This document shows positions 10,524-23,919 of a DNA stretch of 64,000 nt, piece by piece (position 1 is the first letter of the stretch; every line of letters starts with the position of its first letter). The translations under genes and the position numbers were made by a program. Where the stretch lies: NCBI GenBank assembly GCA_045863235.1, contig BTUM01000019.1:18691-82690 (forward strand). Direction: 5' to 3'. Source of the DNA: Candidatus Xenobia bacterium. GTDB taxonomy: Bacteria; Vulcanimicrobiota; Xenobia; Xenobiales; QWHO01. A model generated the notes under the pieces. That model made no database searches. It was not told the DNA's origin and saw only the letters and a list, made by a program, of their open reading frames with translations.

Positions 10524-10656
10524 ACCAGGGGAATGTTCTCAATCTCTCATGCCGGATCCTGCCCGTCAAAATGGCTTAAAAACTCGCATAACGGCCCCAG
10601 CTCTTGAATCGGGCTCAAAGCGGGAAACTCCGCCGAGGGTCCGAACTCCGCCCGCC

Positions 10657-11589
10657 ATGGCGAGCTTTCTGCTCAAGGAGCTGGCCCGGCGGGTGGAGGG
10701 GTCCGTGCTGGGCGATGGCGAGTTGACCATCACCTCGGTGAGCGGCCTGGAGGGCGTGCAGCCGGGCGGGCTGACTTTCATCGAGGAAGCCGGCCGGCTC
10801 GCGGAGGCCGAAACCAGCGGAGCGGTCGCCGTCATCGCCCCTCCGGATGTAGAGTCGAGCCACCTCGCCGTGCTGCGCACACCCCGACCGCGCGTCGCAT
10901 TCGCGCGCCTGTTGGCGCTCTTTCACCCCCGCCCGCCGGTGCACCCGCTCATCCATCCAACCGCCTTCATCCACCCGCAGGCGCGGGTGGCCGCCACCGC
11001 CCACATCGGTCCCTTCTGCTCAGTAGGAGCCGGGTCGGAGGTGGGCGAGGGTGTCGAACTGGTGGCCCGTGTCACCCTGGAAGAGGAAGTCATCCTGGAG
11101 AGGGGGGTCTGGCTGCAAGCCGGGGTGGTCGTCAAGCGGGGCGCGCGGCTTGGCCCGGAATGCTCTCTGTTACCCCACTCGGTGGTGGGTCCGAGGAGCG
11201 TTCTGGGCCCCCGAGTCGAGACGGGCGCTCGGGTCGTCATTGGAGCCGAGGTCAGCATCGGAGAAGGCAGCAAGCTGGATAACCTGGTCCTGGTAGGAGC
11301 TGGCTCGAAGTTGGGCCGCCACGTGCTGATGGTGGGACACAGTATGGTGCTGACCGGCTGCGAACTGGGCGACTACAGTGTCGTGGCCGCCCAGTCGGTG
11401 GTTCTGCCGGGCGTGAAGCTGGGGGCCCAGGTGCAACTCGCGGCTCGCTCCTTTGCCGATCAAGACCTTCCCAAAGCGGGCACCTACTCGGGCGACCCGG
11501 CCCAACCTCATCGTCAGGAGATGGTCTTCAAGGCCCTTCAGGGGAAGGCTGCCGAGCTCTGGCAGGGCTTAAAAAGGGTCCGCAGGTAA
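10657..11589 (+). CDS. lpxD: UDP-3-O-acylglucosamine N-acyltransferase
   Basis: Left-handed beta-helix hexapeptide repeats with the LpxD N-terminal domain (LKELARRVEGSVLGDGELTITSVSGLE..). Start taken at MASFLLKE. Confidence 0.8.
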   Translation: MASFLLKELARRVEGSVLGDGELTITSVSGLEGVQPGGLTFIEEAGRLAEAETSGAVAVIAPPDVESSHLAVLRTPRPRVAFARLLALFHPRPPVHPLIHPTAFIHPQARVAATAHIGPFCSVGAGSEVGEGVELVARVTLEEEVILERGVWLQAGVVVKRGARLGPECSLLPHSVVGPRSVLGPRVETGARVVIGAEVSIGEGSKLDNLVLVGAGSKLGRHVLMVGHSMVLTGCELGDYSVVAAQSVVLPGVKLGAQVQLAARSFADQDLPKAGTYSGDPAQPHRQEMVFKALQGKAAELWQGLKRVRR

Positions 11590-12313
11590 GGGCCAGCAGG
11601 ATCCAACCCAGAATCCCCGAGAGCGGATCGCCTGACAGGCCCCAGAACCAGGAGCTGTCCAACCGTCCCGGCGGGTCGACGATCTGGATGAAAACCCAGG
11701 TGGTGTGGACCCCGATGGCCATCCAGAGTGAGCCGGTTCGTTCGACCAGAAGAGCCAGGAAGATTCCGGCCAGCACCAGAGACACTCCGAAGGCCAGTTT
11801 CCACTCGGTTGTTCCAGGGCGAAACAGATGGAGAACCGCAAAGAAGAGGTTCACGCCCAGATAGGCGGCCGGTCGCCCCCACTCCTCGCGGGCCACCTGG
11901 AACAGGTAGCCGCGGAACACGACCTCCTCGGCGATGGCCATGAGCGGTGCCGCGATCAGCGCCGCCAGAAGGGGGGGATCGGGGGGCGGGGTCCAGCGAC
12001 CGAAGAGGGTTAAGATCAACCGCGAACCAACGATCATCCCCGTGCCCAGCAAGATTCCGGTGGTGAACAGGCGCACCCAGCCCGGGCGCATTGCCAGGCT
12101 GGCCGAGCCCGGCCGCGGACCCCAGCGCCGCCAGCTGTAGGAGGTGCTGAAGAGCAGCCAACAGTAAAGGGCGATCAGATAGCCGTCTTTCCAGGCGCGT
12201 GGCCCGTGGCGACTGAGCAAAATGGTGGGCTCGCCCAGAATCAGTCCCGGGATGAGCCAGGCCGCCACCCAGCCAACGGCCAGCAGACCCAGGAAAGCGC
12301 CGATCCGTTTCAA
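11528..12313 (-). CDS. CPBP (CAAX) family intramembrane metalloprotease
   Basis: Multiple TM helices, the EEVVFRGYLF motif and a downstream FxxxH motif. Its 3' end overlaps lpxD convergently. Confidence 0.75.
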   Translation of the reverse strand: MKRIGAFLGLLAVGWVAAWLIPGLILGEPTILLSRHGPRAWKDGYLIALYCWLLFSTSYSWRRWGPRPGSASLAMRPGWVRLFTTGILLGTGMIVGSRLILTLFGRWTPPPDPPLLAALIAAPLMAIAEEVVFRGYLFQVAREEWGRPAAYLGVNLFFAVLHLFRPGTTEWKLAFGVSLVLAGIFLALLVERTGSLWMAIGVHTTWVFIQIVDPPGRLDSSWFWGLSGDPLSGILGWILLALTCGPFLSPARARQPSPEGP

Positions 12314-13467
12314 GGAGGTGGTTGGCCGTGGGCCAGCGATTCTATCCAGGCCGCCATCCGGGCCGCGCCCCCCGGCGGACCCATGCGCTCACGTCCCACC
12401 GCGCCGCGCCGGTGACGCTCCTCAGGGTCGCGCAGCAGCCTGGACAGAGCGGCGACGATGACTTCGGGACGGTCCTCCACCACCTCCACAGCCTCCCCCA
12501 AGAGGCCCTTCTGGCGGAAACGATACCAGCTCATCCTCTTCTCGCCGCCGGGCCCGTAGGCAAGTACCGGCAACCCCTTGCCGGCGGCCTGCTCGTTTGC
12601 CGTTCCGGCCTGGCCCAGCACGAGCTGGCAGTGAGCCAGCACATCTCCCAGGACTCGCCGCACCAATAGCACGGAGGGCAGACCCTCCCGGCACAGCTCG
12701 CCCACCATGCCACGCTCGGTCGGAGAAGCATTCAGCTGCCACCCGGGGGGAACCAGCCGCTCCAATTGAAGACTATCAGCCACGACCACCACGGCCCGCG
12801 CCCGGTCGCCCCCCTGCCAGAGGAGCCCGTAGACGTCGAGCATCCGGGCCAGTTCGGCGTACGCCTCCACCCGGCTGCCCGGGAAGAGAGCTATCCAGGG
12901 CAAGTTGCCGTTGAGGGGCAGATCGATGCCGGTGGGCTCAAGAGCGTCCATCATCGGGTTTCCCACCCAGGCCGCTCGAATGCCCGCTCGACGCAGGTCG
13001 GCCGCGGTCGGCTCGTCGCGGGTCAGCACCCGATCGGCCAGTTGCCGCATAGCCAGTCGCTCGAACCAGGAGTAACGATGGTGGACGACCGACTTGGCGG
13101 TGCCGATGAAGAGGAGTGGTCGCAACCCTGCAAAGGCGTTGAGCAGGGCAAAGACATCTCCCACCACCACGAAGAGCTGGTACTGGCGCCGCACCTGGCG
13201 CAAGAAGCGAAACTGGCGCAAAAGCAGGGTGAGCAGACCACTGCGGAGATCGCGGGTGATGTGACTGAGCGGAGAATCGTTGACCAGCCCCCCGCTGGGC
13301 ATCGGAGCCTGGCGCGGTCCAACCAGCGGTAGCACGCCCTGATAAGCGGCTCCCTGACCCACCGTGGGCATGGCCTCAGCCTCGACCCGATTCAGACGCG
13401 ATCCGATCAAGCTGGCGATCGCATCCTCGCCGGCGCCGTTGGAGATGAACAGCACCCGGGGGCGCAT
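12310..13467 (-). CDS. Lipid-A-disaccharide synthase-related glycosyltransferase (LpxB-like paralog)
   Basis: 385 aa GT-B-like protein with an N-terminal VLFISNGAGEDAIA motif resembling the LpxB-related family. Distinct from the canonical lpxB at 16639-17802. Confidence 0.55.
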   Translation of the reverse strand: MRPRVLFISNGAGEDAIASLIGSRLNRVEAEAMPTVGQGAAYQGVLPLVGPRQAPMPSGGLVNDSPLSHITRDLRSGLLTLLLRQFRFLRQVRRQYQLFVVVGDVFALLNAFAGLRPLLFIGTAKSVVHHRYSWFERLAMRQLADRVLTRDEPTAADLRRAGIRAAWVGNPMMDALEPTGIDLPLNGNLPWIALFPGSRVEAYAELARMLDVYGLLWQGGDRARAVVVVADSLQLERLVPPGWQLNASPTERGMVGELCREGLPSVLLVRRVLGDVLAHCQLVLGQAGTANEQAAGKGLPVLAYGPGGEKRMSWYRFRQKGLLGEAVEVVEDRPEVIVAALSRLLRDPEERHRRGAVGRERMGPPGGAARMAAWIESLAHGQPPP

Positions 13468-14247
13468 TCAGGCCACCAGGGCTGGGGAGTGTAACCGATA
13501 CTCCAGTTGCCCTGACCCCAGACGCAACTCGGCCAAATAACGGCTGTGGCTCCCGGCCTGCACGATGGGTACTCCCCCCACCCGATGAGGCTCTTCCAGC
13601 ACGGTGTGGCTGTGGGCGCCTAAAATCAGGTCGACTCGGGGCAGTCGGGGCGCGATCCGGCAGTCCACCTCAAATCCCAGATGGGAAAGGAGCAAGACCA
13701 GGTCGCAACGCGGGCGCATCTCCTCCACCAACTGGGGCAGACAATCCTCGGGCTGAAAGAATCGTAGCCCGAAAAGGCGTTCCCACAGCGAGCCATGGGG
13801 ATACTGCACCACCGTGGCCCCGATCAGCCCCACTTTCAAATCCTCGACCTGAAACTCCAGCACCGATTGCCACAGATCGTGATGGGCGTTTCGCAGGTCG
13901 ATCAGGTTGGCGGCCAGCAAAGGAAAACGACGCTGGTCTCGACGCCAGCCCATCACCCGGCGCAGGTAATGGAGTTCGCGATTGCCCATGGCCATGGCGG
14001 CGAAGCCCAGCTCGCGCATCTGATCGAGGACCGGCTCATGACGCCGGTACACAGTGTTGGAGCCGCAGAGGGCATCGCCCCCATCCAGCAGCAGGGTGCG
14101 GGCGTCGCGCGGCTGGCGAGCCAGCAGGTCCAGACTGGCCGTCCGGCCATGCATGTCGTTGGTGTAGAGCAGCCTCAGGTCGGCCACATCAACCCCGGGA
14201 GAGCTTTCCGAGCACCAGGGGGAGTGAGGATCCGAGCAACCAGCCAA
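13468..14247 (-). CDS. Calcineurin-like metallophosphoesterase
   Basis: Metal-binding motifs LLYTNDMHGR, DGGD and GNRE. A possible GTG start at 14185-14187 overlaps the stop of the upstream gene. Confidence 0.7.
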   Translation of the reverse strand: MAGCSDPHSPWCSESSPGVDVADLRLLYTNDMHGRTASLDLLARQPRDARTLLLDGGDALCGSNTVYRRHEPVLDQMRELGFAAMAMGNRELHYLRRVMGWRRDQRRFPLLAANLIDLRNAHHDLWQSVLEFQVEDLKVGLIGATVVQYPHGSLWERLFGLRFFQPEDCLPQLVEEMRPRCDLVLLLSHLGFEVDCRIAPRLPRVDLILGAHSHTVLEEPHRVGGVPIVQAGSHSRYLAELRLGSGQLEYRLHSPALVA

Positions 14248-14767
14248 CGGCCGCGCCCAGAAACGACCCCGTAACTTGATACAGAGCCCAGCAACCGAGC
14301 GCCCCGCCGGCCCAATTCATGACGAAAGCCAGAGGGGAGAGAAAGATGGAGAAGCCCAGCGCCCCCCCCAGAAGTCCTCCCCCCAACCCCGACAGGGCGC
14401 CCGCTCCCAGGTTCAGCAGGCGACTCCCCAATACTGCCCCCTCCCAGGAGGCCAGGGCAAGCCCGGTCAGGGCGGGGGGAGCAGGCGGATTGAGATTGGC
14501 GCCGGTCAAGAAGGCAGCGAGAAACCCGCACAGACCGAATCCCACGATGGAAAGCAAGCGCTGGCCGGGGGTGATGCCGGGAGATCCGGCGGGCTGGTCC
14601 TGAACGCCTCCAATAGGGGCGTCCTCCTGCTCCTGGCCATCCTGTGCCAGTTGGGCTTCGAGCTCCTTGCGCTTGCGTTTCTTCTTGCTCACAGCACTGT
14701 CCCTGTCAAGCGCAGCTTCCAGAGCAGGATGCTCCAGGCCACGGTCAACCAGGCGAAGGTCGACCAC
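14189..14767 (-). CDS. Hypothetical Gly/Ala/Leu-rich membrane protein
   Basis: ORF with a charged N-terminus (KKKRKRKELEAQ) and then several hydrophobic glycine-rich segments. No recognisable family. Confidence 0.35.
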   Translation of the reverse strand: MVDLRLVDRGLEHPALEAALDRDSAVSKKKRKRKELEAQLAQDGQEQEDAPIGGVQDQPAGSPGITPGQRLLSIVGFGLCGFLAAFLTGANLNPPAPPALTGLALASWEGAVLGSRLLNLGAGALSGLGGGLLGGALGFSIFLSPLAFVMNWAGGALGCWALYQVTGSFLGAAVGWLLGSSLPLVLGKLSRG

Positions 14768-15273
14768 TCAAAACGTAGAGCCGTCTTGAGGCAGAAGGTG
14801 CCTTCCCCGCCGGACCAGCCGGTCAGGCGAGGCAGCAGGGCCGGCACGCTCCGGCAATACTGCTCATAGGTCTCGCCAAACTGCTTGCGCAAGAAGCCCT
14901 CTTCCAGCGGGATGATGGTCGTGTAGATGCCCGTGTGAATGCCAACCGCCGCCAGGAAGACCCAGGGACCCACCGAGCCCATGCCGGCTGTGGCCGCCAG
15001 GGCCACCCCGGCCCCGTTGAGCAGGTTGCCCAGATAGAGGGGATTGCGTAGATAGGAGTACGGCCCGGCGGTGATCAACCGGGGCGCGTCGAGGTACTGC
15101 CGGCGAGTGGGAAGCCCGGTGTAGCCCAGGGCCCACAGCCGGAGAAGCTCGCCCATGAAAGCCAGGCAGGCGCCCAGCATCAGGCCGGTCGGGCTGGGGC
15201 GGCTGTAGTAGAGCACCAGCACGCCGGTGACTCCGGCCAGGGCTCCTCTCCAACGAAACACAAATTCACGCAT
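14689..15273 (-). CDS. ICMT/PEMT-family membrane methyltransferase
   Basis: TM helices plus the C-terminal GPYSYLRNPLYLGNLL motif typical of isoprenylcysteine carboxyl methyltransferase-like enzymes. Start taken at the internal MREFVF. Confidence 0.7.
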   Translation of the reverse strand: MREFVFRWRGALAGVTGVLVLYYSRPSPTGLMLGACLAFMGELLRLWALGYTGLPTRRQYLDAPRLITAGPYSYLRNPLYLGNLLNGAGVALAATAGMGSVGPWVFLAAVGIHTGIYTTIIPLEEGFLRKQFGETYEQYCRSVPALLPRLTGWSGGEGTFCLKTALRFEWSTFAWLTVAWSILLWKLRLTGTVL

Positions 15274-16504
15274 ACTGCTTTGCCAGGGGCAGACCGAGGG
15301 TCTCGAGAATTTGGTCCGCCAGCCTTTCCCCCGCACCCGGAGCTCCCATCAGAACGCGCAACTCGCGGGAGAGCTGCGCGCGACGCTCGGAATCTCGAGC
15401 CAACTCCTCCAGAACGCTTATCAACGGCTCCAGAGAATCCTGCAAGAGCACCTCGGGAACCAGCTTGCGCCCGGCCCTGAGGTTCGGTTGCGCCACACCG
15501 TGGGGAAACCTCAAATACTCCCTCAGCCGGAGCTGTTCCTTCCAGGCTCCGAGAGGCATCAGGTCGAGCAGCCCCCCCAGGCCTCCGCGCGGGAGCGGAG
15601 CGCGAGTCGATAGAACCAGCACCATCGGGCATCCTGCGCAGGCGAGCTCAGCCGTATTCGTGCCCGGGATGGTCAGGGCCAGATCGAGCGCTCCCATCGA
15701 CTGGTGGGGCCTGCCCTGGGTCAGTGCGATCTCCAGGCCGGCGCGAGTTCTCAGGCTCTTCAGACCGAACTGGCCCGAGCTGCGCTCCAGTCCCAGGTCG
15801 ATGGGGTGGTCCAGTGCCTGTTGGGCGGCCGCCAGGCTGACGAAGGGCGAAAGAACCAGCAAGAACTGGAACTCCGGGTGGCTGCTGGTGAGCTTCTCAG
15901 CAACGCGCAAAAAGAGCGGCAGAGCGGCCCGCAGATGGACTGCGCGCGAGCCCGGGAAAAGTCCCAGCACGGGCCGGTCCATTGCCAGGCCCAGCGCCTG
16001 GCGCGCACCCTCCCGACTCTCGGGCAGGGACACACCGTCCACCATCAGGTTGCCCACGCAAACGATGCGCTGAGGGGCTACCCCGCGCGCGACCAGGGGG
16101 GCGACCAGCTCCGGACTGGGCACGGCCACACGCTGGAAAGCGCGGGCCTGACGGCTTGGGCGCACCGAGTAGGCCAGACCGGGCACGCCCCAGAGGTGGG
16201 CCAGACGGCCGGCCTGCCACAACTCTCCGCCCAGGAAGACGACAATGGCCTGCCTGGAAGGCCGGAAACCAGACATCCCCAGCAACAGGCGCAGAGTCTC
16301 TCGGGGAGCCAGGACGCTGGTCAAGCCAGGCAACTGGCCAGCATACTCCATTTCGCGACCGCTGGCATAAGGACAGGGAACCAGGGCCACGTGCAGACGA
16401 AGATCGCTCTGGCGAGCCAGCAGGGCCTGGCTGGTGACGCGCACCCACGAGGAGAGCTCGCCCGGCGAATTCGAGGTCATGATGATGTCGGGCATCGCGA
16501 GCAA
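15266..16504 (-). CDS. Lipid-A-disaccharide synthase-related glycosyltransferase (second LpxB-like paralog)
   Basis: 412 aa GT-B-like protein. N-terminus IIMTSNSPGELSSWV is analogous to the 12310-13467 paralog. Confidence 0.5.
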   Translation of the reverse strand: MLAMPDIIMTSNSPGELSSWVRVTSQALLARQSDLRLHVALVPCPYASGREMEYAGQLPGLTSVLAPRETLRLLLGMSGFRPSRQAIVVFLGGELWQAGRLAHLWGVPGLAYSVRPSRQARAFQRVAVPSPELVAPLVARGVAPQRIVCVGNLMVDGVSLPESREGARQALGLAMDRPVLGLFPGSRAVHLRAALPLFLRVAEKLTSSHPEFQFLLVLSPFVSLAAAQQALDHPIDLGLERSSGQFGLKSLRTRAGLEIALTQGRPHQSMGALDLALTIPGTNTAELACAGCPMVLVLSTRAPLPRGGLGGLLDLMPLGAWKEQLRLREYLRFPHGVAQPNLRAGRKLVPEVLLQDSLEPLISVLEELARDSERRAQLSRELRVLMGAPGAGERLADQILETLGLPLAKQYA

Positions 16505-16638: not shown

Positions 16639-17802
16639 TCAACGCGCGGGACTGTATCGACTCTGCAGGAGCCCTTCGACGTGGTCAGCCACCCGGCCGA
16701 TCACTCCTGGCTCACCCACCGAGGCCCGGGCCCGATCCAGGCACTCCAGCATGCGCTCGCGCTCCGGTCCCTCCTCAAAGAGCCGGATGGCCTCACGGAC
16801 CAGGTTCTCGGGGGTGGCCGTGGTCTGCAAGAACTCCGGCATCACGTCCTCGTCGAGCACCAGGTTGACCAGGCCGAAACGGTCCACCCGCATCAGCTTG
16901 AGGCGGCGCAGCAACCGATAGAGGGCCCAGTCGAAAGAGCTGCCTTTATAGAAAACCACGTGGGGAATGCGCAGGAGAGCCGCCTCCAGGCTGGCCGTTC
17001 CGCTGGTAATCAGGGCCACGCGCGAAGCGGCCAGAGCCTCCCTCGCCTGGCCCTGCAAGACGTGAAGATAGGGCGGCGTGGTGCCCAATTGCCGGGCCAG
17101 AAACGGCGCCAGCCGGGGGGTGGCGCAGGGGATCAGGAACTTCACGTCCGGATAGCGCTGACGCAACAGAGCGGCCGCCTCGAGCAATACCGGAGTCAGA
17201 TAGCGCAGTTCCTGGATGCGGCTCCCGGGTAGCAACGCGACATAGCGGCCGGGCTTCAGTCCCAGGGCCTGCTGGGCCTGTTCCAGCGGTCGGGGGGGAC
17301 CGATGATATCCACCAGCGGATGGCCGAAAAAGCCAACCTCCAGACCGTTCTTGCGGTACTGCTCGGCATTGAAGCGAAAGGCCGTCACCACGCTGGTAAC
17401 CCGCTGGTGGATCTGGTGAAGTCTCTTTGAGCTGCGGGTCCACTGAGAAGGCGGGAAGTAATACATCGTCCTGATCCCGTGCCGCTGTGCAAACCCCGCC
17501 AACCGGTAGTGGGCGGCCGGACTGTCGATCACGATCAGCAGGTCAGGGCGCACCTCGAGCAGCAGTTTGCGCATCTTCCGGTAGGCAAGCAGCAAGGTGG
17601 GGATCAGCCCGATGGCGGCGCTCGGACCGATCACGCCCCAACCGGTGCTGTCGATGAAAACCTCGACTCCGGCCGCCCTCATGGAGTGTCCTCCCGCACC
17701 GAGAATGCGCATCTGGGGGTGACGACGCTTCAATTCGGCGGCCAGAGCGGCGGCCTGCAGATCGCCCGAAGGCTCGGCCGTGCTGATGACCAGCGTGCTC
17801 AC
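16639..17802 (-). CDS. lpxB: Lipid-A-disaccharide synthase
   Basis: N-terminal ISTAEPSGDLQAA motif (the LpxB AGExSGD box), GT19 fold, about 387 aa. Confidence 0.85.
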   Translation of the reverse strand: MSTLVISTAEPSGDLQAAALAAELKRRHPQMRILGAGGHSMRAAGVEVFIDSTGWGVIGPSAAIGLIPTLLLAYRKMRKLLLEVRPDLLIVIDSPAAHYRLAGFAQRHGIRTMYYFPPSQWTRSSKRLHQIHQRVTSVVTAFRFNAEQYRKNGLEVGFFGHPLVDIIGPPRPLEQAQQALGLKPGRYVALLPGSRIQELRYLTPVLLEAAALLRQRYPDVKFLIPCATPRLAPFLARQLGTTPPYLHVLQGQAREALAASRVALITSGTASLEAALLRIPHVVFYKGSSFDWALYRLLRRLKLMRVDRFGLVNLVLDEDVMPEFLQTTATPENLVREAIRLFEEGPERERMLECLDRARASVGEPGVIGRVADHVEGLLQSRYSPAR

Positions 17803-17930: not shown

Positions 17931-18755
17931 TTAGACCCCGGCGGCTTCGGCCGCCAGAGTGCGGCCGTTGATGCCCTGACCCTCGCGGCGAATGCAGACG
18001 CCCTGTCGGGAGGGGTTCTCGAGGAATCGGATCAGGTGCCCGGTTTCGTTATTGGAAGGAATGGTACGGCGCATGGCATCGACGGCCTGGGACAAATTGA
18101 GGCCCGAACGCAGCATCAACTGGTAGCACCGTTTGAGGTCGTGGCGCACCTCGCGGGGGATCCCTCGTCGCTGCATACCGCGGATGTTCATCCCGTAAAT
18201 GCGGGCCGGTTGCCCGTCTACCAGAGAGAAGGGGGGCACGTCCTGGATGACCTTGGCCAGGCCGCCCACCATGGCCAGTCGGCCGATGCGAACGAACTGG
18301 TGGAAGCCACTCATTCCCCCGAGCACGGCCTGATCTTCCACGTCCACGTGGCCGGCCAGTCCAACCGAGTTGGCGATGACGATCTGGTTGCCCAGCGTGC
18401 AGTTATGAGCCACGTGCGTATAGGCCATAATCAGGTTGTCGTCGCCGATGGAGGTGACGCCCTCGGGCTCATAGGCGCGATGAATGGTGACATACTCACG
18501 GATGATGTTGCGGTCGCCCAGGCGAGTATACGCACGGTCGCCACTGTAGCGAAGGTCTTGAGGAGCCACCCCGATGACCGCACCGGGCCAGATCTCGTTC
18601 TCCTGGCCGATCTCGGTCCACTCCCCGATCACGACCGAGGAGTGGATGCGGGTGCCACGACCGACCTTCACGTTGGCGGATACAATGGAGAACGGACCCA
18701 CCTCGACGTCTTCGCCAAGTTGGGCCCCCGGATCGACAATTGCCGAGGGATGCAC
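17931..18755 (-). CDS. lpxA: Acyl-ACP--UDP-N-acetylglucosamine O-acyltransferase
   Basis: MHPSAIVDPGAQLGEDVEVGPFSIV hexapeptide beta-helix and the LpxA C-terminal helical domain. Confidence 0.9.
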   Translation of the reverse strand: MHPSAIVDPGAQLGEDVEVGPFSIVSANVKVGRGTRIHSSVVIGEWTEIGQENEIWPGAVIGVAPQDLRYSGDRAYTRLGDRNIIREYVTIHRAYEPEGVTSIGDDNLIMAYTHVAHNCTLGNQIVIANSVGLAGHVDVEDQAVLGGMSGFHQFVRIGRLAMVGGLAKVIQDVPPFSLVDGQPARIYGMNIRGMQRRGIPREVRHDLKRCYQLMLRSGLNLSQAVDAMRRTIPSNNETGHLIRFLENPSRQGVCIRREGQGINGRTLAAEAAGV

Positions 18756-18783: not shown

Positions 18784-19812
18784 CTAACCCGCTAACGCGA
18801 TCAAATCTTTCGGCAGCGGAGCCTTGGACTTGACGATTTTCATTCGGGCCAGAACCTGCATTGCAAGCTCAAGTGCTCGTTTGCCATCCTCGCCGGTCAC
18901 CAGCGGGGTTTTGTGGGTGGCCACGCAGTCGGCAAAGTGACTCAATTCGAGGCGAAGCGGCTCTTTCTTCTCAAGCTGGACAAACTCGGGAGCCATCGGA
19001 TAACCGTTGGAGGGTGGGCGCAGAATGGACAAATTCTGGTTGATGAAGTCGAGGCAGAGTGTCCGGCCCGAGTCTTCGGTGACCTTCAGTTGACGCAACC
19101 GCTCTCCGCTTACCCGGCTGGCCATCAGGCTGGCGGCGGTTCCGTTCTTGAAGAGCAGATGCACCTGGGCGATGTCCTCGAAGTCGGAGTAGACGGACAC
19201 GCCCACCGCATTGATCTCCACCACGGGCGAATTGACCAGGTTGATGAGGATATCCAGGTCGTGGATCATGAGGTCCCAGACAACCCCCACGTCGAGGTTC
19301 CGGTTGGTCGGGTAGGAGAGTCGGTGCGACTCGAGGTGAATGGGCCGACCCAGGACTTCGCGCAGTTTGCCCACCGCAGGATTGAAGCGCTCCAGGTGGC
19401 CCACCTGAAGCACCAGGTTGCGCTTCTTGGCGTAGTCCACCAGGCGCTTGGCCTGAATCAGATCCACGGTGATGGGTTTCTCCACCAGAACGTGAATGTC
19501 GCGAGCCAGAAACTCCATGGCCAGCTCGTAATGAAAGATGGTGGGGGCAACGATGTTCACGGCTTCGACCCGCTCGAACAGGTCGCGGTAGCTGTTGAAG
19601 AACTGGGTATGAAACCGGTCCGAGCAGATGCGACCGCGGGCCTCGTTGACATCGACGACGCCGACCAGCTCGGTCTGGGGAAGCTCGGAATAGACCCGGG
19701 CATGGTGCACGCCCATGTTCCCGATGCCCACCACTCCCACTTTGACCGGTTCCAAGACTTTGCGCCTCCTTCGTCCTGAGGCCCCGCTCCTCAACGGCGA
19801 ATCCCTTGCCAC
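18784..19812 (-). CDS. Gfo/Idh/MocA family NAD(P)-dependent oxidoreductase
   Basis: Rossmann VKVGVVGIGNMG near the N-terminus, the Gfo/Idh/MocA EKP motif (VLVEKPI) and a C-terminal alpha/beta domain. The true start may be an internal GTG. Confidence 0.8.
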   Translation of the reverse strand: MARDSPLRSGASGRRRRKVLEPVKVGVVGIGNMGVHHARVYSELPQTELVGVVDVNEARGRICSDRFHTQFFNSYRDLFERVEAVNIVAPTIFHYELAMEFLARDIHVLVEKPITVDLIQAKRLVDYAKKRNLVLQVGHLERFNPAVGKLREVLGRPIHLESHRLSYPTNRNLDVGVVWDLMIHDLDILINLVNSPVVEINAVGVSVYSDFEDIAQVHLLFKNGTAASLMASRVSGERLRQLKVTEDSGRTLCLDFINQNLSILRPPSNGYPMAPEFVQLEKKEPLRLELSHFADCVATHKTPLVTGEDGKRALELAMQVLARMKIVKSKAPLPKDLIALAG

Positions 19813-19894: not shown

Positions 19895-20374
19895 TCACGA
19901 TTTTGTGACCGTTCCGCCATCCAGGGCGCCTGGAGAAAGCCCTGCTCCGACACTCACGGGCACGGTCTGGGAATTTGAATGCGCTTCCAGAGTAAAATCG
20001 CCCTGCATGGCCGTCTTCTCTTCAACCAGCGCCTGACACCGCAGCCGATAGCGCTCTCCTTCCCGTTCAAGCAACTCGACCTGCAGGTCGAGTCGGTCGC
20101 CCGGAACGACCTGGCGCCGGAATTTCAGGCGCTCGATGCGCACCACTCGAAAGCCACGGCCCAGGAAGATCCAGGCCAATTGCAGCAGGCTCTCGATTTG
20201 CAGCACCCCGGGCATAACCGGAAAGTGCGGAAAATGGCCCCGAAAGTACGGCTCATTGATGGTGACGTTCTTGTAGCCGGTAGCGCGTTTCTCGTCAAGC
20301 TCCAGAACCCGATCCAAGAGCAGGCATGGGTAACGGTGGGGCAACCTCTTCCTGATTTCGCTCATCTCCAACAT
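19895..20374 (-). CDS. fabZ: 3-hydroxyacyl-ACP dehydratase
   Basis: LPHRYPCLLLDRV..EPYFRGHFPHFPVMPGVL hot-dog fold motifs. Confidence 0.9.
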   Translation of the reverse strand: MLEMSEIRKRLPHRYPCLLLDRVLELDEKRATGYKNVTINEPYFRGHFPHFPVMPGVLQIESLLQLAWIFLGRGFRVVRIERLKFRRQVVPGDRLDLQVELLEREGERYRLRCQALVEEKTAMQGDFTLEAHSNSQTVPVSVGAGLSPGALDGGTVTKS

Positions 20375-21200
20375 CGGTCGGGTCCTCCTTCAGTACTTTG
20401 CCCACCAACTCGACATGCAAGCGGTGGCCGGCCTTGACCGCCACCACCCGGGCCATCAGATCGCATCCAAGCAGTGCCAGATCCCCCACCAGGTCAAGAC
20501 ACTTGTGACGCACGGGCTCGTCGGGAAAACGAAGCTCTGAGGTGTAGCCGTCGGAACGGATCACCAGAGCGTTGGACAGATCTCCCCCCCTGGCCAGACC
20601 CCTCTCGAGCAGGGCCTCGACCTCCTCCATGAAGCCATAGGTGCGAGCCGCAGCCAATCCTGAGAGGAAGCTCTCCGGGGTAGGCGTGTGATGAACCTGC
20701 TGGTAGGTGATCATCGGATGCTGATAATGCAGCGAATACTCCAGCCGCGCCTCGGCCGCAGGCAGAGCCAGCACCAGGGCGTTCTCGTCGCCCACCCAGA
20801 GAGGTCGCGTCAGCACGTGCCGGCAGGCGGGCCGCTCCTGGCCAACGACGCCGACGGCCAGAAAGGCCTCCGCGAACGGCAGAGCAGAGCCGTCCAGAAT
20901 GGGCACCTCAGGGCCCTCGATCAAGATGCGGAGGTTGTCGAGTCGAAGACCCGCGCAGGCGGCCAGCAAATGCTCGACGGTGCTGACCGAAACCCCCCCG
21001 GCCGAGAGCACGGTGCAGCGCTCGACTGAGCTCACCCGGGCGTGCAAGGCGGGGATCTCCTGACCGTGACGAACGAACACCCGACCGGAGTCGACGGGAG
21101 CCGGCAGTACTTCAACCCGGGCCAACTGGCCCAGGTGAATGCCCACCCCCTCGAAGCGCACCGGGGCAGCCAGTGTTTGCTGGGGCCTGCTCACTTCCAT
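20295..21200 (-). CDS. lpxC: UDP-3-O-acyl-N-acetylglucosamine deacetylase
   Basis: QQTLAAPVRFEGVGIHLGQ N-terminus and HxxEH-type zinc motifs (VEHLLAACAG). Start taken at the internal MEVSRPQQTL. The 3' end overlaps the fabZ start by about 70-80 nt in a different frame. Confidence 0.85.
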   Translation of the reverse strand: MEVSRPQQTLAAPVRFEGVGIHLGQLARVEVLPAPVDSGRVFVRHGQEIPALHARVSSVERCTVLSAGGVSVSTVEHLLAACAGLRLDNLRILIEGPEVPILDGSALPFAEAFLAVGVVGQERPACRHVLTRPLWVGDENALVLALPAAEARLEYSLHYQHPMITYQQVHHTPTPESFLSGLAAARTYGFMEEVEALLERGLARGGDLSNALVIRSDGYTSELRFPDEPVRHKCLDLVGDLALLGCDLMARVVAVKAGHRLHVELVGKVLKEDPTDVGDERNQEEVAPPLPMPALGSGSGA

Positions 21201-22999
21201 TCGGTCCCTCCCGGAACTTGCAGAGGACCGGAGGTAGTCGGCTCGCCCTGCCCCGTCACGTCGTGCCATTGCAGTTCGGCCGGGTAACTCGAGGAGGCCT
21301 CGGGGAAGGTCAGCAGACGCACGACCTTCTTTTCGCCCGGCCCCAGGTCGAAGTGGCGAACCAGGCTTGGCGGAGCGCCTTGCGGCTTGCGAAAGGGGGT
21401 TTCATAAACCTTGCCGTCGATGAGAAACGAGCCGGCGGCGGGTCCGTTCAGAGGCAGAAAATAGAGACCCACCCGGACCGGGAAGGGGCGCGGATTGATC
21501 AGTGTCGTCTCCAGCCGATAAAACACCCCGAAATTGCCGGTGTTGGGCAACCCGGTTTCGAAGTCGATCAGCCAGGGATCTTCTCCGAAGCGCACCCCGA
21601 CCGGGGCTCCCCCGGTGCGAAACTCGAGCTCTTCTTCGAAATATGGCTGGGCAAAGACGCCGTGGGGGTGAATCTTGAAAGGGTTGAAGGGGGCGCCCAG
21701 GTGGGGCAACTTCTTACCGTCGTTGAAGCTGGGGGCCAGCTCGGTGCGCACTTCGACCTCCAGCGACTCGCCTTCCAGAATGCGGAGGTTGGCAAAGCCG
21801 GTCACCAGAGCCTGGGTGCCAACCTCATGGGCAGCCAGCTCCAGCTTCGTCCGCGGCGGCATGGTGAGCACGTAACCAGCGCCGTCCCCCTCTTGCTCGA
21901 GAAATCGCGTGGCCGAGGTGTGCCCTACCAGAACCTCGTTCCGACTCGGACCAGCGTACAGCGTGTTGACCAGCACCTTGACTGCCTGGTCGTTGGGGTT
22001 CTCCAGATTGACCCACAGGTTGCGCTTGCCTTTGGAGATGTTTTTATGGCTGTACATCAGCCGGCTGGGCTCTTTCTGGCTGAACTTGTATTGCAGCAGG
22101 ACCCCATCCACGTCAACGAGTTCGGGGCGATTGGAGACCAACAGCAAGTTGGCCTCGACCGGCTCGACGTCCAGGCTGCTGACCACAACGGGCAGGCTCC
22201 TGGCGACAGGATAATAATCCTCGCTGCCTTCGATCTTGATAGGCACGGTCAGTCGCATCATCTGGCCGCGCGGGACGGAAGGGAGCTCGCTCAAATCCCC
22301 CCCCACGCTCATCACACAGCCCGGACGCACCCGGGCCTGCACATAGGCTTCCCGCAAGACCCCTTCGGCCACCACCGCGCCCGGGGCTGGATTGCCCACC
22401 ACCTGGACGTTGACCACCTCGGGCAAGGTTCCGGCCCAGTCCTTGACGTGGACGAAGAGATAGGCCTGACCCTGGCCTCGACGCACCTTCAAGCGGGTCT
22501 TGCCCACCCGCGATCCGGTCAGGGTCAAGAGCCCGGTCTCATCGACCGCAGCCTGGACCACCCCGTTGGCGTCCTCCACCTCGATGGGCCCTTCGGCCAG
22601 GCCGGTCACCTCGATCGTGCGCGCCTCGCCAACGGGCATAACCACTCGCCCGGGAGAAAGTCGCACCAACCCATCGGCGACCAGCTCGTGCAGGTTGTTG
22701 GCCCAGCGCAGAGCCAGCTTGAGGGGGTCGCTCTGGTTGGCCGCGGCCATGCTCCTGGTGACCTCGACGATCAGCACCCCGCCCCAGAGAATGGTGGCGC
22801 CATTCTTACTCTTGACGACCTTGATGCCTTCGGGGTCGGCCCCTCGCTCGAGTTGCGCTTCGATGCGCCGGGACACGGCTTCGGCCTGCTCGGCGCTTTC
22901 CAGTCGCATCACGACTCGATCGCCCAGAGTGACTTCCTGGGCCAGACCAGGCAAAGCCAGGGCCAGGAAAAAGACCATAACCAGGACCCGAACGCTCAC
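21191..22999 (-). CDS. Secreted hypothetical protein (602 aa) embedded in lipid A cluster
   Basis: Signal peptide MSVRVLVMVFFLALALPGLAQE. No recognisable enzymatic motifs. Beta-rich composition. Confidence 0.55.
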   Translation of the reverse strand: MSVRVLVMVFFLALALPGLAQEVTLGDRVVMRLESAEQAEAVSRRIEAQLERGADPEGIKVVKSKNGATILWGGVLIVEVTRSMAAANQSDPLKLALRWANNLHELVADGLVRLSPGRVVMPVGEARTIEVTGLAEGPIEVEDANGVVQAAVDETGLLTLTGSRVGKTRLKVRRGQGQAYLFVHVKDWAGTLPEVVNVQVVGNPAPGAVVAEGVLREAYVQARVRPGCVMSVGGDLSELPSVPRGQMMRLTVPIKIEGSEDYYPVARSLPVVVSSLDVEPVEANLLLVSNRPELVDVDGVLLQYKFSQKEPSRLMYSHKNISKGKRNLWVNLENPNDQAVKVLVNTLYAGPSRNEVLVGHTSATRFLEQEGDGAGYVLTMPPRTKLELAAHEVGTQALVTGFANLRILEGESLEVEVRTELAPSFNDGKKLPHLGAPFNPFKIHPHGVFAQPYFEEELEFRTGGAPVGVRFGEDPWLIDFETGLPNTGNFGVFYRLETTLINPRPFPVRVGLYFLPLNGPAAGSFLIDGKVYETPFRKPQGAPPSLVRHFDLGPGEKKVVRLLTFPEASSSYPAELQWHDVTGQGEPTTSGPLQVPGGTEWK

Positions 23000-23919
23000 T
23001 GGCGATCTCCCAGCAGGCGCTCGAGCTCCTTGAGCGCCTGCGGCAGCCGGTGAAGAGCGGCATACACCTCGACCGCTTCCTTCCTGTCACGCCCCGGGTA
23101 CCCGGCCAGAACCGCGCCCGGAGGCACCTTCTTACGCATCGAGCCGCAACGCGGCAAAAGCTCGACCCCGTCACCAAGCTCTACATGGCCGAGAGTTCCG
23201 CTCTGCCAGCCCAGACGGCAATCCTGCCCGATGTGGGCCGAACCGGGCAGGCCAACCTGCTCGCCGATGACGGTCCGGTCGCCAACCTGGACGTTGTGAC
23301 CGATCTGAGTCAGGCTGCCAATCCTCACCTCGCGGCCGATCCGGGTGGTCGTGGTGGTGGCCCGGTCGATGCACACACCGGACTCGATGACCGAGTCGTC
23401 GCCGACCTCCACCAGACCCACCTGAGGAATCTTGAGGTGCTGGCCCTGGTCCACCACGTAGCCGTAACCGTCGCTGCCCAGAATGGCACCCGAGGCCACT
23501 CGAACCCTGCGACCCAGGCGCACTCCTTGCATCAGCACGGCCCCCGGCTCGAGCAAGCACTCCTCGCCGACCTCAACGCCGGCGGCGACGAAACAGCACG
23601 GCCCGACCAGCACGCGGTCACCCAGGCGAGCACCGGGCTCGACCACGGCCCCGGCTCCGACGGTAACCCCCTCGCCCAACCAGGCCTCGGCCGACACGGC
23701 TGCTCCCGGCACCAGGGTGAGACAGTCTCTGAGACGCTGGTAAAGCTGCTCGTCGCCCTGGAGCTCGACCCCCACGGTAGCGTCCCCACCTGTGCTGCCA
23801 GGAGGACCCAGCCCCCCCGGGCGGGCTCCCAGGCAGCTGATGCGCAGTTCGGGCTGGTCGGTAGTAGCGCCGAATTCTCGGGCCAGATCGACCAGACGCC
23901 AGGGTGGACCGTTTAGCAA
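22996..23919 (-). CDS. lpxD: UDP-3-O-acylglucosamine N-acyltransferase paralog
   Basis: Hexapeptide beta-helix with the LpxD C-terminal helix. This is the second LpxD-family gene in the window. Confidence 0.8.
   Translation of the reverse strand: MLNGPPWRLVDLAREFGATTDQPELRISCLGARPGGLGPPGSTGGDATVGVELQGDEQLYQRLRDCLTLVPGAAVSAEAWLGEGVTVGAGAVVEPGARLGDRVLVGPCCFVAAGVEVGEECLLEPGAVLMQGVRLGRRVRVASGAILGSDGYGYVVDQGQHLKIPQVGLVEVGDDSVIESGVCIDRATTTTTRIGREVRIGSLTQIGHNVQVGDRTVIGEQVGLPGSAHIGQDCRLGWQSGTLGHVELGDGVELLPRCGSMRKKVPPGAVLAGYPGRDRKEAVEVYAALHRLPQALKELERLLGDRQ

What the first reader, a model, noticed from the sequence alone, without database searches (positions are those of the whole stretch)
13468..14247. 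Metallophosphoesterase in the lpx cluster is a candidate for the missing UDP-2,3-diacylglucosamine hydrolase step
The window has no LpxH or LpxI homolog. A calcineurin-like metallophosphoesterase (DMHG / GDD / GNRE motifs) is embedded between lpxB-family genes. Chlamydial LpxG is a metallophosphoesterase that performs this step. This gene may therefore be a non-orthologous LpxH/LpxI replacement.
Basis: inference. Interest (0 to 1): 0.6.

Follow-up and report, generated by a model that had tools for sequence, protein, structure and literature searches.

The report
Candidate fourth lipid-X-forming hydrolase
A small cytoplasmic metal-dependent phosphoesterase inside the lipid A operon of an Eremiobacterota-like bacterium is a strong, still untested candidate for the enzyme that cuts UDP-diacylglucosamine to lipid X, because related gene clusters carry either this gene or the known enzyme LpxI, never both.

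Summary
The ORF is real. It is probably 239 aa, from GTG 14187 to the stop at 13468. It keeps all seven metal ligands of the calcineurin-like fold.

It is not LpxH, LpxG or LpxI. By sequence and predicted fold it is a stand-alone N-terminal domain of the 5'-nucleotidase/UshA (UDP-sugar hydrolase) lineage. It lacks a signal peptide and the C-terminal substrate domain.

- The gene lies in lipid A clusters (lpxA-lpxB-...-MPE-TIGR03492) in more than 50 loci labelled Eremiobacterota, Xenobia, Melainabacteria or Firmicutes. In Armatimonadota it lies next to Kdo genes.
- Clusters built around the same TIGR03492 gene hold either lpxI (12 loci, no MPE) or this MPE (no lpxI), never both. This reflects one evolutionary switch, not many.
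- Motif III is GNRE in 96 of 97 members. The His-to-Arg change was reported as unique to LpxH, where the Arg binds the lipid X phosphate.

One natural MPE::TIGR03492 fusion also exists.

Two things are untested. I could not check whether these genomes lack lpxH elsewhere, and no activity is shown. Confidence is about 0.6. If true, it is a fourth, independently recruited UDP-diacylglucosamine hydrolase.

The parts
13468..14247 (-). The metallophosphoesterase (MPE). The probable true CDS is 13468-14187 (GTG start, 239 aa). It is a stand-alone 5'-nucleotidase/UshA-type N-domain with motif III GNRE.
   Evidence: Invariant D31 H33 D58 N89 H189 H212 H214 plus R90 E91 in 28 sequences. AF2 mean pLDDT 90.4.
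12310..13467 (-). TIGR03492 'lipid-A-disaccharide synthase-related' GT-B protein. Its ATG abuts the MPE stop codon. It follows the MPE in 52 of the 80 MPE-anchored genome loci and is fused to it in P0222.
   Evidence: 259 bits, cutoff 219.
14189..14767 (-). Small Gly/Ala/Leu-rich ORF (192 aa), probably a membrane protein, upstream of the MPE. tblastn found it only in six close relatives (L001-L004, L006, L009). No family hit.
14689..15336 (-). PEMT/ICMT-family membrane methyltransferase with weak LmtA-like similarity (LmtA is the lipid A 1-phosphate methyltransferase).
   Evidence: PEMT 41.5 bits. (LmtA_Leptospira 55 bits, far below its cutoff of 325). Conserved next to the MPE or next to LpxI.
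15266..16504 (-). Second LpxB-like GT19 paralogue ('LpxB2', 412 aa).
   Evidence: LpxB 46.8 bits over residues 148-297 only. Conserved in both MPE-type and LpxI-type clusters.
16639..17802 (-). lpxB, lipid A disaccharide synthase. It is the consumer of lipid X.
   Evidence: TIGR00215 241 bits, cutoff 190.
17931..18755 (-). lpxA. It is separated from lpxB by 128 nt, so there is no room for an lpxI gene.
   Evidence: 338 bits, cutoff 226.
18784..19812 (-). Gfo/Idh/MocA oxidoreductase, GnnA-like (UDP-GlcNAc 3-dehydrogenase-like).
   Evidence: 258 bits to the archaeal UDP-GlcNAc 3-dehydrogenase model, below its cutoff of 450.
19895..20374 (-). fabZ
20295..21269 (-). lpxC
   Evidence: TIGR00325 229 bits, cutoff 187.
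21191..22999 (-). Conserved 602-aa ORF with no family hit, between lpxD and lpxC.
22996..23919 (-). lpxD (first copy).
   Evidence: PRK00892 220 bits, cutoff 207.
11528..12313 (-). CPBP (Rce1-like) intramembrane protease, the last gene of the operon.
10549..11589 (+). Second, divergent lpxD-like acyltransferase, convergent with the operon.
   Evidence: LpxD N-domain plus hexapeptide repeats; 165 bits, below the cutoff of 207.

Best explanation
The gene most likely encodes a cytoplasmic, dimetal (probably Mn2+) UDP-2,3-diacylglucosamine pyrophosphatase. It would be a functional analogue of LpxH, LpxG and LpxI.

**Proposed mechanism.**
- A metal-bridged hydroxide attacks the alpha-phosphate of UDP-2,3-diacyl-GlcN (or its GlcN3N analogue, given the GnnA-like gene).
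- This releases UMP and lipid X.
- The neighbouring LpxB then condenses lipid X with a second UDP-diacylglucosamine.
- The family-specific Arg (R90, GNRE) replaces the catalytic His of 5'-nucleotidases. As in LpxH, it would clamp the beta-phosphate that stays on lipid X.

**Origin.** The enzyme was recruited from the N-terminal catalytic domain of the 5'-nucleotidase/UshA lineage, whose members already cleave UDP-sugars. It lost the signal peptide and the C-terminal nucleotide-binding domain.

**Shown here:** fold, metal ligands, the Arg substitution, operon placement and exclusion with lpxI.

**Inferred:** substrate, site of attack, metal, and any partnership with the TIGR03492 protein.
For: **1. 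Synteny.** In 52 of 80 MPE-anchored genome loci the gene lies inside lpx clusters directly upstream of TIGR03492, often as lpxA-lpxB-MPE-TIGR03492.
- L088 shows bamA-skp-lpxD-lpxC-fabZ-lpxA-lpxB-MPE-TIGR03492-waaL-like-lptC-lptB-lptFG.
- L081, L084 and L086 show the same core.
- In 27 Armatimonadota-type loci it instead follows KdsD and/or KdsC-like genes (13 loci) and precedes ArnT-like GT-C genes (18 loci).

**2. Displacement.** TIGR03492-anchored clusters are either lpxA-(PEMT)-lpxI-lpxB-lpxB2-TIGR03492 (12 loci, none with the MPE) or lpxA-lpxB-(lpxB2)-(PEMT)-MPE-TIGR03492 (none with lpxI).
- Among loci holding both lpxA and lpxB, the HMM annotation gives 52 MPE only, 11 LpxI only, 0 both and 1 neither. 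The 'neither' locus is L041, whose MPE was merged into the lpxB reading frame; tblastn finds it, which makes 53.
- In the unbiased TIGR03492-anchored subset the split is 6, 10, 0 and 0.
- lpxA and lpxB are adjacent in MPE-type clusters, with no room for lpxI.

**3. Active site.** All seven dimetal ligands are invariant. Motif III is GNRE in 96 of 97 members, whereas ordinary 5'-nucleotidases have GNHEFD (P0289, P0342). [quoted passage not shown]

**4. Chemistry.** The nearest relatives include UshA, a UDP-sugar hydrolase that makes UMP plus sugar-1-phosphate. This is the same bond cleavage.

**5. Location.** The protein has no signal peptide or transmembrane segment and starts about 5 residues before motif I. 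This fits a cytoplasmic substrate.

**6. Coupling.** The stop and start codons of the MPE and TIGR03492 genes abut. One natural MPE::TIGR03492 fusion (P0222, 650 aa) sits in an lpxC-fabZ-gnnA-lpxA-lpxB-PEMT-[fusion]-lptC operon.
Against: - No activity data exist.
- I could not scan a whole genome, so lpxH, which is usually unlinked to lpx clusters, could exist elsewhere in MPE-type genomes.
- The LpxI-type clusters form a single clade in the TIGR03492 tree (one Fitch change). The exclusion is therefore one evolutionary event and could be a lineage effect.
- The protein lacks a visible acyl-chain-binding lid such as the helical insertion domain of LpxH (secondary structure; PMC5016852).
- One member (L088) keeps GNHE.
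- The gene is placed after lpxB beside TIGR03492, not at the lpxI position. The tight coupling to TIGR03492 could mean it serves that enzyme's unknown reaction instead.
- The fusion is seen on one contig from one sample only.
Confidence: 0.6

Rival explanations
1. The MPE is a lipid A/LPS-pathway phosphoesterase with a different substrate. It would work with the TIGR03492 GT-B protein, for example by removing a phosphate or nucleotide from that enzyme's substrate or product, or by dephosphorylating a lipid A intermediate. Lipid X would then be made by an unlinked LpxH.
For: - Tight coupling and one fusion with TIGR03492.
- The gene sits after lpxB rather than at the lpxI position.
- LpxH is normally unlinked to lpx clusters, so its absence from the loci is uninformative.
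- The LpxI/MPE exclusion is a single phylogenetic event.
Against: - TIGR03492, LpxB2 and PEMT all occur in LpxI-type clusters without the MPE. Their reactions therefore do not need it; only the presence of LpxI correlates with its absence.
- The LpxH-type Arg at motif III is hard to explain for a monoesterase.
- In Armatimonadota the MPE is separated from TIGR03492.
Confidence: 0.22
2. The TIGR03492 protein is the real replacement. As a GT-B enzyme it would hydrolyse UDP-diacylglucosamine, in the manner of PseG or the hydrolysing UDP-GlcNAc 2-epimerases. The MPE would only process the nucleotide by-product (UDP or UMP).
For: - The TIGR03492 profile hits UDP-GlcNAc 2-epimerases (E 5e-7) better than LpxB (E 1e-3) among solved structures.
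- The MPE is related to nucleotidases.
Against: - TIGR03492 co-occurs with LpxI in 12 clusters, so it is not an LpxI substitute.
- A dedicated UDP/UMP-degrading enzyme conserved in lpx operons has no precedent that I know of.
- The catalytic His of nucleotidases is replaced.
Confidence: 0.08
3. The MPE is an ordinary housekeeping nucleotidase or UDP-sugar hydrolase that happens to lie in the operon.
For: Best family matches are 5'-nucleotidase, UshA, SoxB and YfkN N-domains, and sources name homologues '5'-nucleotidase'.
Against: - All those matches fall far below family cutoffs.
- The C-terminal substrate domain, the signal peptide and the catalytic His-Asp dyad are missing.
- Synteny with LPS genes is conserved across MAGs carrying several different phylum labels (Eremiobacterota/Vulcanimicrobiota, Xenobia, Armatimonadota, Melainabacteria, Firmicutes).
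Confidence: 0.05

Closest known systems
LpxH (UDP-2,3-diacylglucosamine pyrophosphatase; beta/gamma-proteobacteria)
   Same: - Calcineurin-like dimetal fold.
- Cytoplasmic, with no transmembrane segment.
- About 240 aa.
- Motif III carries Arg instead of His (GNRD versus GNRE).
- Proposed reaction and site of attack (alpha-phosphate, giving UMP plus lipid X).
   Different: - No family-level sequence similarity: no LpxH model among NCBIfam hits at E<=10, no LpxH chain at E<=1 in the PDB profile search, and hhalign probability 0.9%.
- It derives from the 5'-nucleotidase/UshA branch.
- It has no helical insertion (lid) domain for the acyl chains.
- It is encoded inside the lpx operon.
LpxG (Chlamydia Ct461)
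   Same: It is the precedent for a non-LpxH calcineurin-like phosphoesterase doing this step (PMC4807358).
   Different: - LpxG is 37 kDa, has an N-terminal transmembrane helix and keeps GNHD.
- This protein is about 27 kDa, has no transmembrane helix and has GNRE.
- No detectable specific similarity.
LpxI (DUF1009; alpha-proteobacteria, diderm Firmicutes and others)
   Same: - It occupies the same kind of lpx cluster and is mutually exclusive with this gene.
- In several clusters the gene after PEMT is lpxI; in the others it is the MPE.
   Different: LpxI has an unrelated fold, attacks the beta-phosphate, and lies between lpxA and lpxB.
UshA / 5'-nucleotidase / YfkN / SoxB N-terminal metallophosphatase domain
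   Same: - Closest by sequence and fold: profile E 2e-27 to 2z1a, and Foldseek E about 3e-19 with TM about 0.76 to UshA, CD73 and YunD.
- UshA cleaves UDP-sugars to UMP plus sugar-1-phosphate.
   Different: - No signal peptide.
- No 5_nucleotid_C domain.
- GNHEFD (the His-Asp dyad) is replaced by GNRE[FL]H.
- Scores are far below all family cutoffs.

Membership tests
Calcineurin-like metallophosphoesterase superfamily (PF00149) | Motifs DxH / GD / GNH(D/E) / H / GHxH that provide the dimetal ligands | tested here: met
   Pfam 28.3 bits, above the cutoff of 21.5. D31, H33, D58, N89, H189, H212 and H214 are invariant in 28 sequences. The motif III His is replaced by Arg.
5'-nucleotidase / UshA family | N-terminal metallophosphatase domain of this subfamily | tested here: met
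   PDB profile search E 2e-27 to 1e-25 to 5'-nucleotidases and UshA. The top 50 Foldseek hits are all of this family.
5'-nucleotidase / UshA family | C-terminal substrate-binding domain (5_nucleotid_C) | tested here: not met
   The protein ends about 25 residues after motif V. It has no second Pfam domain, and the whole family is about 240 aa.
5'-nucleotidase / UshA family | Catalytic His-Asp dyad in GNHEFD, and secretion signal | tested here: not met
   GNRE[LF]H in 96 of 97 members. The N-terminus starts at motif I with no hydrophobic leader. Ordinary members P0289 and P0342 have both features.
5'-nucleotidase / UshA family | Score above curated family cutoffs (UshA, SoxB, NadN, CpdB, YfkN models) | tested here: not met
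   The best score is 87 bits against cutoffs of 275-2800.
LpxH | Sequence membership (NCBIfam LpxH models; similarity to solved LpxH structures) | tested here: not met
   - No LpxH model among the NCBIfam hits at E<=10.
- No LpxH chain at E<=1.
LpxH | Arg replacing the motif III His (GNRD); it binds the lipid X phosphate | tested here: met
   R90 is invariant in A1 and present in 96 of 97 members. The role of the Arg is taken from PMC5016852.
LpxH | Helical insertion (lid) domain that forms the acyl-chain cavity | tested here: not met
   The AF2 model has only the core helices of the 5'-nucleotidase N-domain, and no block of about 55 residues with four helices is inserted. The alignment to UshA covers the whole protein.
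LpxG | N-terminal transmembrane helix, GNHD motif, about 37 kDa (PMC4807358) | tested here: not met
   No transmembrane helix, GNRE motif, 239-259 aa.
LpxI | LpxI_N and LpxI_C domains | tested here: not met
   No Pfam hit. An LpxI profile built from 12 loci does not hit the window.
UDP-2,3-diacylglucosamine hydrolase (functional class) | Encoded with lpxA/C/D/B, and mutually exclusive with the other hydrolases in the cluster | tested here: met
   No locus holds both the MPE and LpxI: 52 MPE only (53 counting L041 by tblastn) and 11 LpxI only. This reflects a single phylogenetic switch.
UDP-2,3-diacylglucosamine hydrolase (functional class) | Genome-wide absence of LpxH, LpxI and LpxG | not testable with these tools
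   Only the window and flanks of up to 10 kb around loci could be read.
UDP-2,3-diacylglucosamine hydrolase (functional class) | Hydrolysis of UDP-diacylglucosamine to lipid X; complementation of an lpxH mutant | not testable with these tools
   This requires experiments.

The most novel reading that the evidence does not exclude
The family is a fourth, independently evolved class of UDP-diacylglucosamine hydrolase, used across Eremiobacterota, Armatimonadota and Melainabacteria-labelled lineages. In this reading it works as a two-part enzyme. The LpxB-like TIGR03492 GT-B protein is translationally coupled to it and sometimes fused. It would take the place of the lost 5'-nucleotidase C-terminal domain, either presenting the UDP-lipid to the dimetal site or channelling lipid X onward.
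Probability: 0.15. Interest if true: 0.8.

Novelty: new variant of a known kind. Interest (0 to 1): 0.62.

Why it matters
**The gap.** The fourth step of lipid A synthesis is the one step of the Raetz pathway known to be carried out by unrelated enzymes: LpxH, LpxI and LpxG. Some lineages, including cyanobacteria and Dictyoglomi, have long been reported to hold lpxA/C/D/B with no known hydrolase (PMC3087551).

**What this would add.** A fourth solution, recruited from the UDP-sugar hydrolase/5'-nucleotidase lineage, would:
- fill that gap for several poorly studied diderm Terrabacteria phyla;
- correct pathway reconstructions that score their LPS synthesis as incomplete;
- provide a natural experiment in convergent active-site evolution, because it carries the same His-to-Arg change as LpxH.

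**Testability.** Complementation of a conditional E. coli lpxH mutant would test it directly.

**Limit.** It does not obviously solve the cyanobacterial case. No oxygenic cyanobacterium appeared among the listed homologues.

Tried and rejected
- **Cyanobacteria.** I asked whether oxygenic cyanobacteria carry the family. Searches with the window protein and with a Melainabacteria-labelled homologue listed none. A TIGR03492 search also listed none. Only the best 120 hits are shown, so absence is not proven.
- **Literature.** I looked for a described fourth class, or for LpxH status in Eremiobacterota or Armatimonadota. Nothing was found. Metzger & Raetz 2010 (PMC2914816) is not held.
- **Apparent LpxB::MPE fusion in L041.** I rejected it. 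The junction translates to Arg-rich, wrong-frame-looking sequence, so it is probably an indel in the assembly.
- **TIGR03492 as the real hydrolase.** This is unlikely because it co-occurs with LpxI.
- **Independence of the exclusion pattern.** The NJ tree of TIGR03492 shows one clade of LpxI-type clusters. I therefore do not quote a Fisher p-value as evidence.
- **tblastn with E. coli LpxH (sequence from memory).** It found nothing in 1.33 Mb of loci plus the window. This is a weak test.
Full report
**Observation**

The minus-strand ORF at 13468-14247 is real. It matches Pfam Metallophos above the gathering score (28.3 against 21.5 bits) and has hundreds of homologues of about 240 aa.

An alignment of 28 members (A1) shows these residues to be invariant: D31, H33, D58, N89, H189, H212, H214. 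These are the seven dimetal ligands of the calcineurin-like fold. R90 and E91 are also invariant.

'GDD' is not; the sequence reads DGGD.

Homologues start about 20 residues later. The likely start is GTG 14187, one base after the upstream stop codon, which gives 239 aa. The stop codon TGA directly abuts the ATG of the next gene, so the genes are packed as one operon.

**Context in the window**

The minus-strand operon reads, in order:
- lpxD (22996-23919)
- a 602-aa ORF with no family hit
- lpxC, fabZ
- a GnnA-like oxidoreductase
- lpxA
- lpxB (16639-17802; above the equivalog cutoff)
- a second LpxB-like gene ('LpxB2', 412 aa)
- a PEMT/LmtA-like membrane methyltransferase
- a small Gly/Ala/Leu-rich, probably membrane, ORF
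- the MPE
- a TIGR03492 'lipid-A-disaccharide synthase-related' gene (259 bits, cutoff 219)
- a CPBP protease

A divergent lpxD-like gene converges on the operon. BamA lies at 27453-30005.

Pfam/NCBIfam scans of about 58 window ORFs of 159 aa or more found no LpxH, LpxI, LpxK, WaaA or second metallophosphoesterase. Where ORFs on the two strands overlapped, one ORF per gene-sized stretch was scanned.

The nearest relatives of the window (91-97% protein identity) are MAG contigs labelled Eremiobacterota or, probably wrongly, 'uncultured Burkholderiales'.

**What the protein is**

- With NCBIfam its best matches are the N-terminal halves of SoxB, UshA-like, UshA, NadN and YfkN/CpdB models. All fall far below their cutoffs. 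No LpxH, LpxG or LpxI model appears among the hits at E<=10.
- A profile search of all PDB sequences gives 5'-nucleotidases and UshA at E 2e-27 to 1e-25, and no LpxH at E<=1.
- The AlphaFold2 model is confident (mean pLDDT 90.4, pTM 0.87). Its 50 best Foldseek matches are all N-domains of YunD, UshA, CD73 and NadN (E about 3e-19, query TM about 0.76).

The protein is therefore a stand-alone 5'-nucleotidase/UshA-type catalytic domain. It lacks three things that define those enzymes:
- the C-terminal substrate-binding domain;
- a signal peptide;
- the His-Asp dyad of GNHEFD, which here reads GNRE[LF]H.

Ordinary 5'-nucleotidases picked up by the same profile (P0289, P0342) have all three.

**The Arg signature**

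The LpxH structure paper (PMC5016852) says the motif III His is important in other metallophosphoesterases. It says the His is 'substituted by Arg' only in LpxH, in all species of known sequence. [quoted passage not shown]

This family carries the same substitution in 96 of 97 members found in the loci. The one exception, L088, keeps GNHE.

It does place DxH, GD and GNRE opposite DLH, GD and GNRD.

So the substitution arose independently in a different branch of the superfamily. I read this as convergent adaptation to a pyrophosphate substrate whose distal phosphate remains on the product. That reading is an inference.

**Conserved neighbourhood**

A scan of one genome per GTDB species gave 282 confirmed matches. 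I read the best 80 and annotated them by tblastn.
- In 52 of the 80 the MPE is directly followed by TIGR03492 and lies in an lpx cluster.
- The short form is lpxD-lpxC-fabZ-lpxA-lpxB-MPE-TIGR03492.
- The long form inserts gnnA, LpxB2 and PEMT.
- Labels include Eremiobacterota/Vulcanimicrobiota, Xenobia, UBP9, Melainabacteria (L029) and rumen MAGs.

Further contexts show the same core:
- L081, on a 7.6-Mb contig: lpxB-LpxB2-PEMT-MPE-TIGR03492.
- L084, L086.
- L088: bamA-skp-lpxD-lpxC-fabZ-lpxA-lpxB-MPE-TIGR03492-waaL-like-lptC-lptB-lptFG.

In 27 Armatimonadota-type loci the gene is elsewhere but still LPS-linked. It lies after KdsD (SIS+CBS) and/or a KdsC-like HAD phosphatase in 13 loci, and before ArnT-like PMT_2 glycosyltransferases in 18.

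**Displacement of LpxI**

A TIGR03492 homologue from a Bacillota-labelled MAG (L083) lies in lpxC-...-fabZ-lpxA-lpxI-lpxB-LpxB2-TIGR03492, with no MPE.

I then fetched 80 metagenome loci anchored on TIGR03492, which is unbiased with respect to MPE and LpxI. I annotated all 169 sequences held, the 168 loci plus the window, with profiles.
- Twelve loci carry LpxI and none of them carries the MPE.
- All MPE loci lack LpxI.
- Among loci holding both lpxA and lpxB the HMM counts are 52 MPE only, 11 LpxI only, 0 both and 1 neither.
- The 'neither' locus is L041. Its MPE was merged into the lpxB reading frame, and tblastn finds it, making 53.
- In the TIGR03492-anchored subset the counts are 6, 10, 0 and 0.

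LpxB2, PEMT and TIGR03492 occur in both types, so only the hydrolase differs. In several LpxI-type clusters the order is lpxA-PEMT-lpxI, and in MPE-type clusters it is PEMT-MPE.

There is an important caveat. In a neighbour-joining tree of TIGR03492 the LpxI-type clusters form one clade, which is one change by Fitch parsimony. The pattern is a single switch, not repeated independent replacement. A lineage effect cannot be excluded.

**Link to TIGR03492**

- The two genes are translationally coupled in the window.
- The exhaustive representative search found one 650-aa protein, P0222. It is the MPE (with GNRE) fused to a TIGR03492 domain that is 39% identical to the window's (E 4e-80).
- P0222 is encoded in lpxC-fabZ-gnnA-lpxA-lpxB-PEMT-[fusion]-lptC (L082). 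It is a single contig from one sample.
- TIGR03492 is a GT-B protein whose profile hits UDP-GlcNAc 2-epimerases slightly better than LpxB. Its reaction is unknown.
- Because it co-occurs with LpxI, it is not itself the LpxI substitute. It may consume lipid X or bind the same UDP-lipid.

**Mechanism proposed**

- Shown: a cytoplasmic dimetal phosphoesterase with intact ligands, encoded in the lipid A operon and exclusive with LpxI.
- Inferred: it hydrolyses UDP-2,3-diacylglucosamine (or the GlcN3N analogue) at the alpha-phosphate to UMP plus lipid X. R90 would hold the beta-phosphate, and LpxB would use the product.
- Unknown: how the acyl chains are bound. There is no LpxH-like lid. The TIGR03492 partner or the membrane surface may provide that function.

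**Limits**

- I could not read whole genomes, so an unlinked lpxH in these organisms is not excluded. This is the main reason confidence stays near 0.6.
- The held literature describes only three classes, LpxH, LpxI and LpxG, up to 2025-2026. It notes lineages with lpxA/C/D/B but no hydrolase (PMC3087551).
- No oxygenic cyanobacterium appeared among the listed homologues.

**Verdict**

If the function is right, this is a new variant of a known kind: a fourth recruitment for the same step, from the UshA/5'-nucleotidase branch.

Noticed in passing
window 12310-13467 and 15266-16504; L083-L168: Two extra LpxB-family (GT19-like) paralogues, TIGR03492 and a roughly 412-aa 'LpxB2', accompany true lpxB in both MPE-type and LpxI-type clusters. 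Their reactions are unknown. The TIGR03492 profile hits UDP-GlcNAc 2-epimerases (E 5e-7) better than LpxB (E 1e-3) among solved structures. The lipid A or core of these lineages may have an unusual sugar backbone.
   Followed up: partly
L019 7573-9504; L084 4290-6257; L144 3865-5889: LpxB2 and the PEMT/LmtA-like methyltransferase lie in one uninterrupted reading frame in three loci. In L084 this is called as a single 638-aa gene. This suggests a functional link between the two.
   Followed up: partly
window 21191-22999 (-): A 602-aa ORF between lpxD and lpxC has no Pfam or NCBIfam hit, yet it is conserved at that position in many Eremiobacterota-type loci at 45-92% identity. It may be an uncharacterised envelope or LPS protein.
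   Followed up: no
window 18784-19812, 22996-23919, 10549-11589: The window has a GnnA-like UDP-GlcNAc 3-dehydrogenase and two LpxD-type acyltransferases. No GnnB-type aminotransferase was seen in the scanned ORFs. This hints at a GlcN3N-containing or mixed lipid A backbone.
   Followed up: no
L088 7218-7997: This is the only family member of 97 that keeps GNHE instead of GNRE at motif III, although it sits in a canonical lpxA-lpxB-MPE-TIGR03492 cluster.
   Followed up: partly
L041 8858-10714: lpxB and the MPE are in one frame with no stop codon. The junction translates to Arg-rich, wrong-frame-looking sequence, so it is probably an assembly indel rather than a true fusion.
   Followed up: yes
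L001, L003, L006, L010, L012, L017 (record titles): Several MAG contigs labelled 'uncultured Burkholderiales' carry this Eremiobacterota-type cluster. L001 and L003 are 96% and 91% identical to the window protein. The taxonomic labels are probably wrong.
   Followed up: no
L059 8417-13997 and 26 other Armatimonadota-type loci: The recurrent Armatimonadota arrangement is KdsD (SIS+CBS), a KdsC-like HAD phosphatase, the MPE, one or two PMT_2 (ArnT-like GT-C) genes, then a GT2 gene. TIGR03492 lies elsewhere, with lpxB, an msbA-like gene and GT2/GT4 genes.
   Followed up: partly
window 8592-10523 (-): A Ser/Thr kinase of 643 aa has a C-terminal region with weak similarity to hydrazine synthase subunit beta, so it may be a beta-propeller. 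It is conserved next to the divergent lpxD-like gene in L002 and L004.
   Followed up: no
PMC4507557 (text hit only): Deinococcus radiodurans is reported to have a 'lipid A disaccharide synthase-related' protein. As far as I recall it makes no lipid A, so TIGR03492-like proteins may not be restricted to lipid A synthesis.
   Followed up: no
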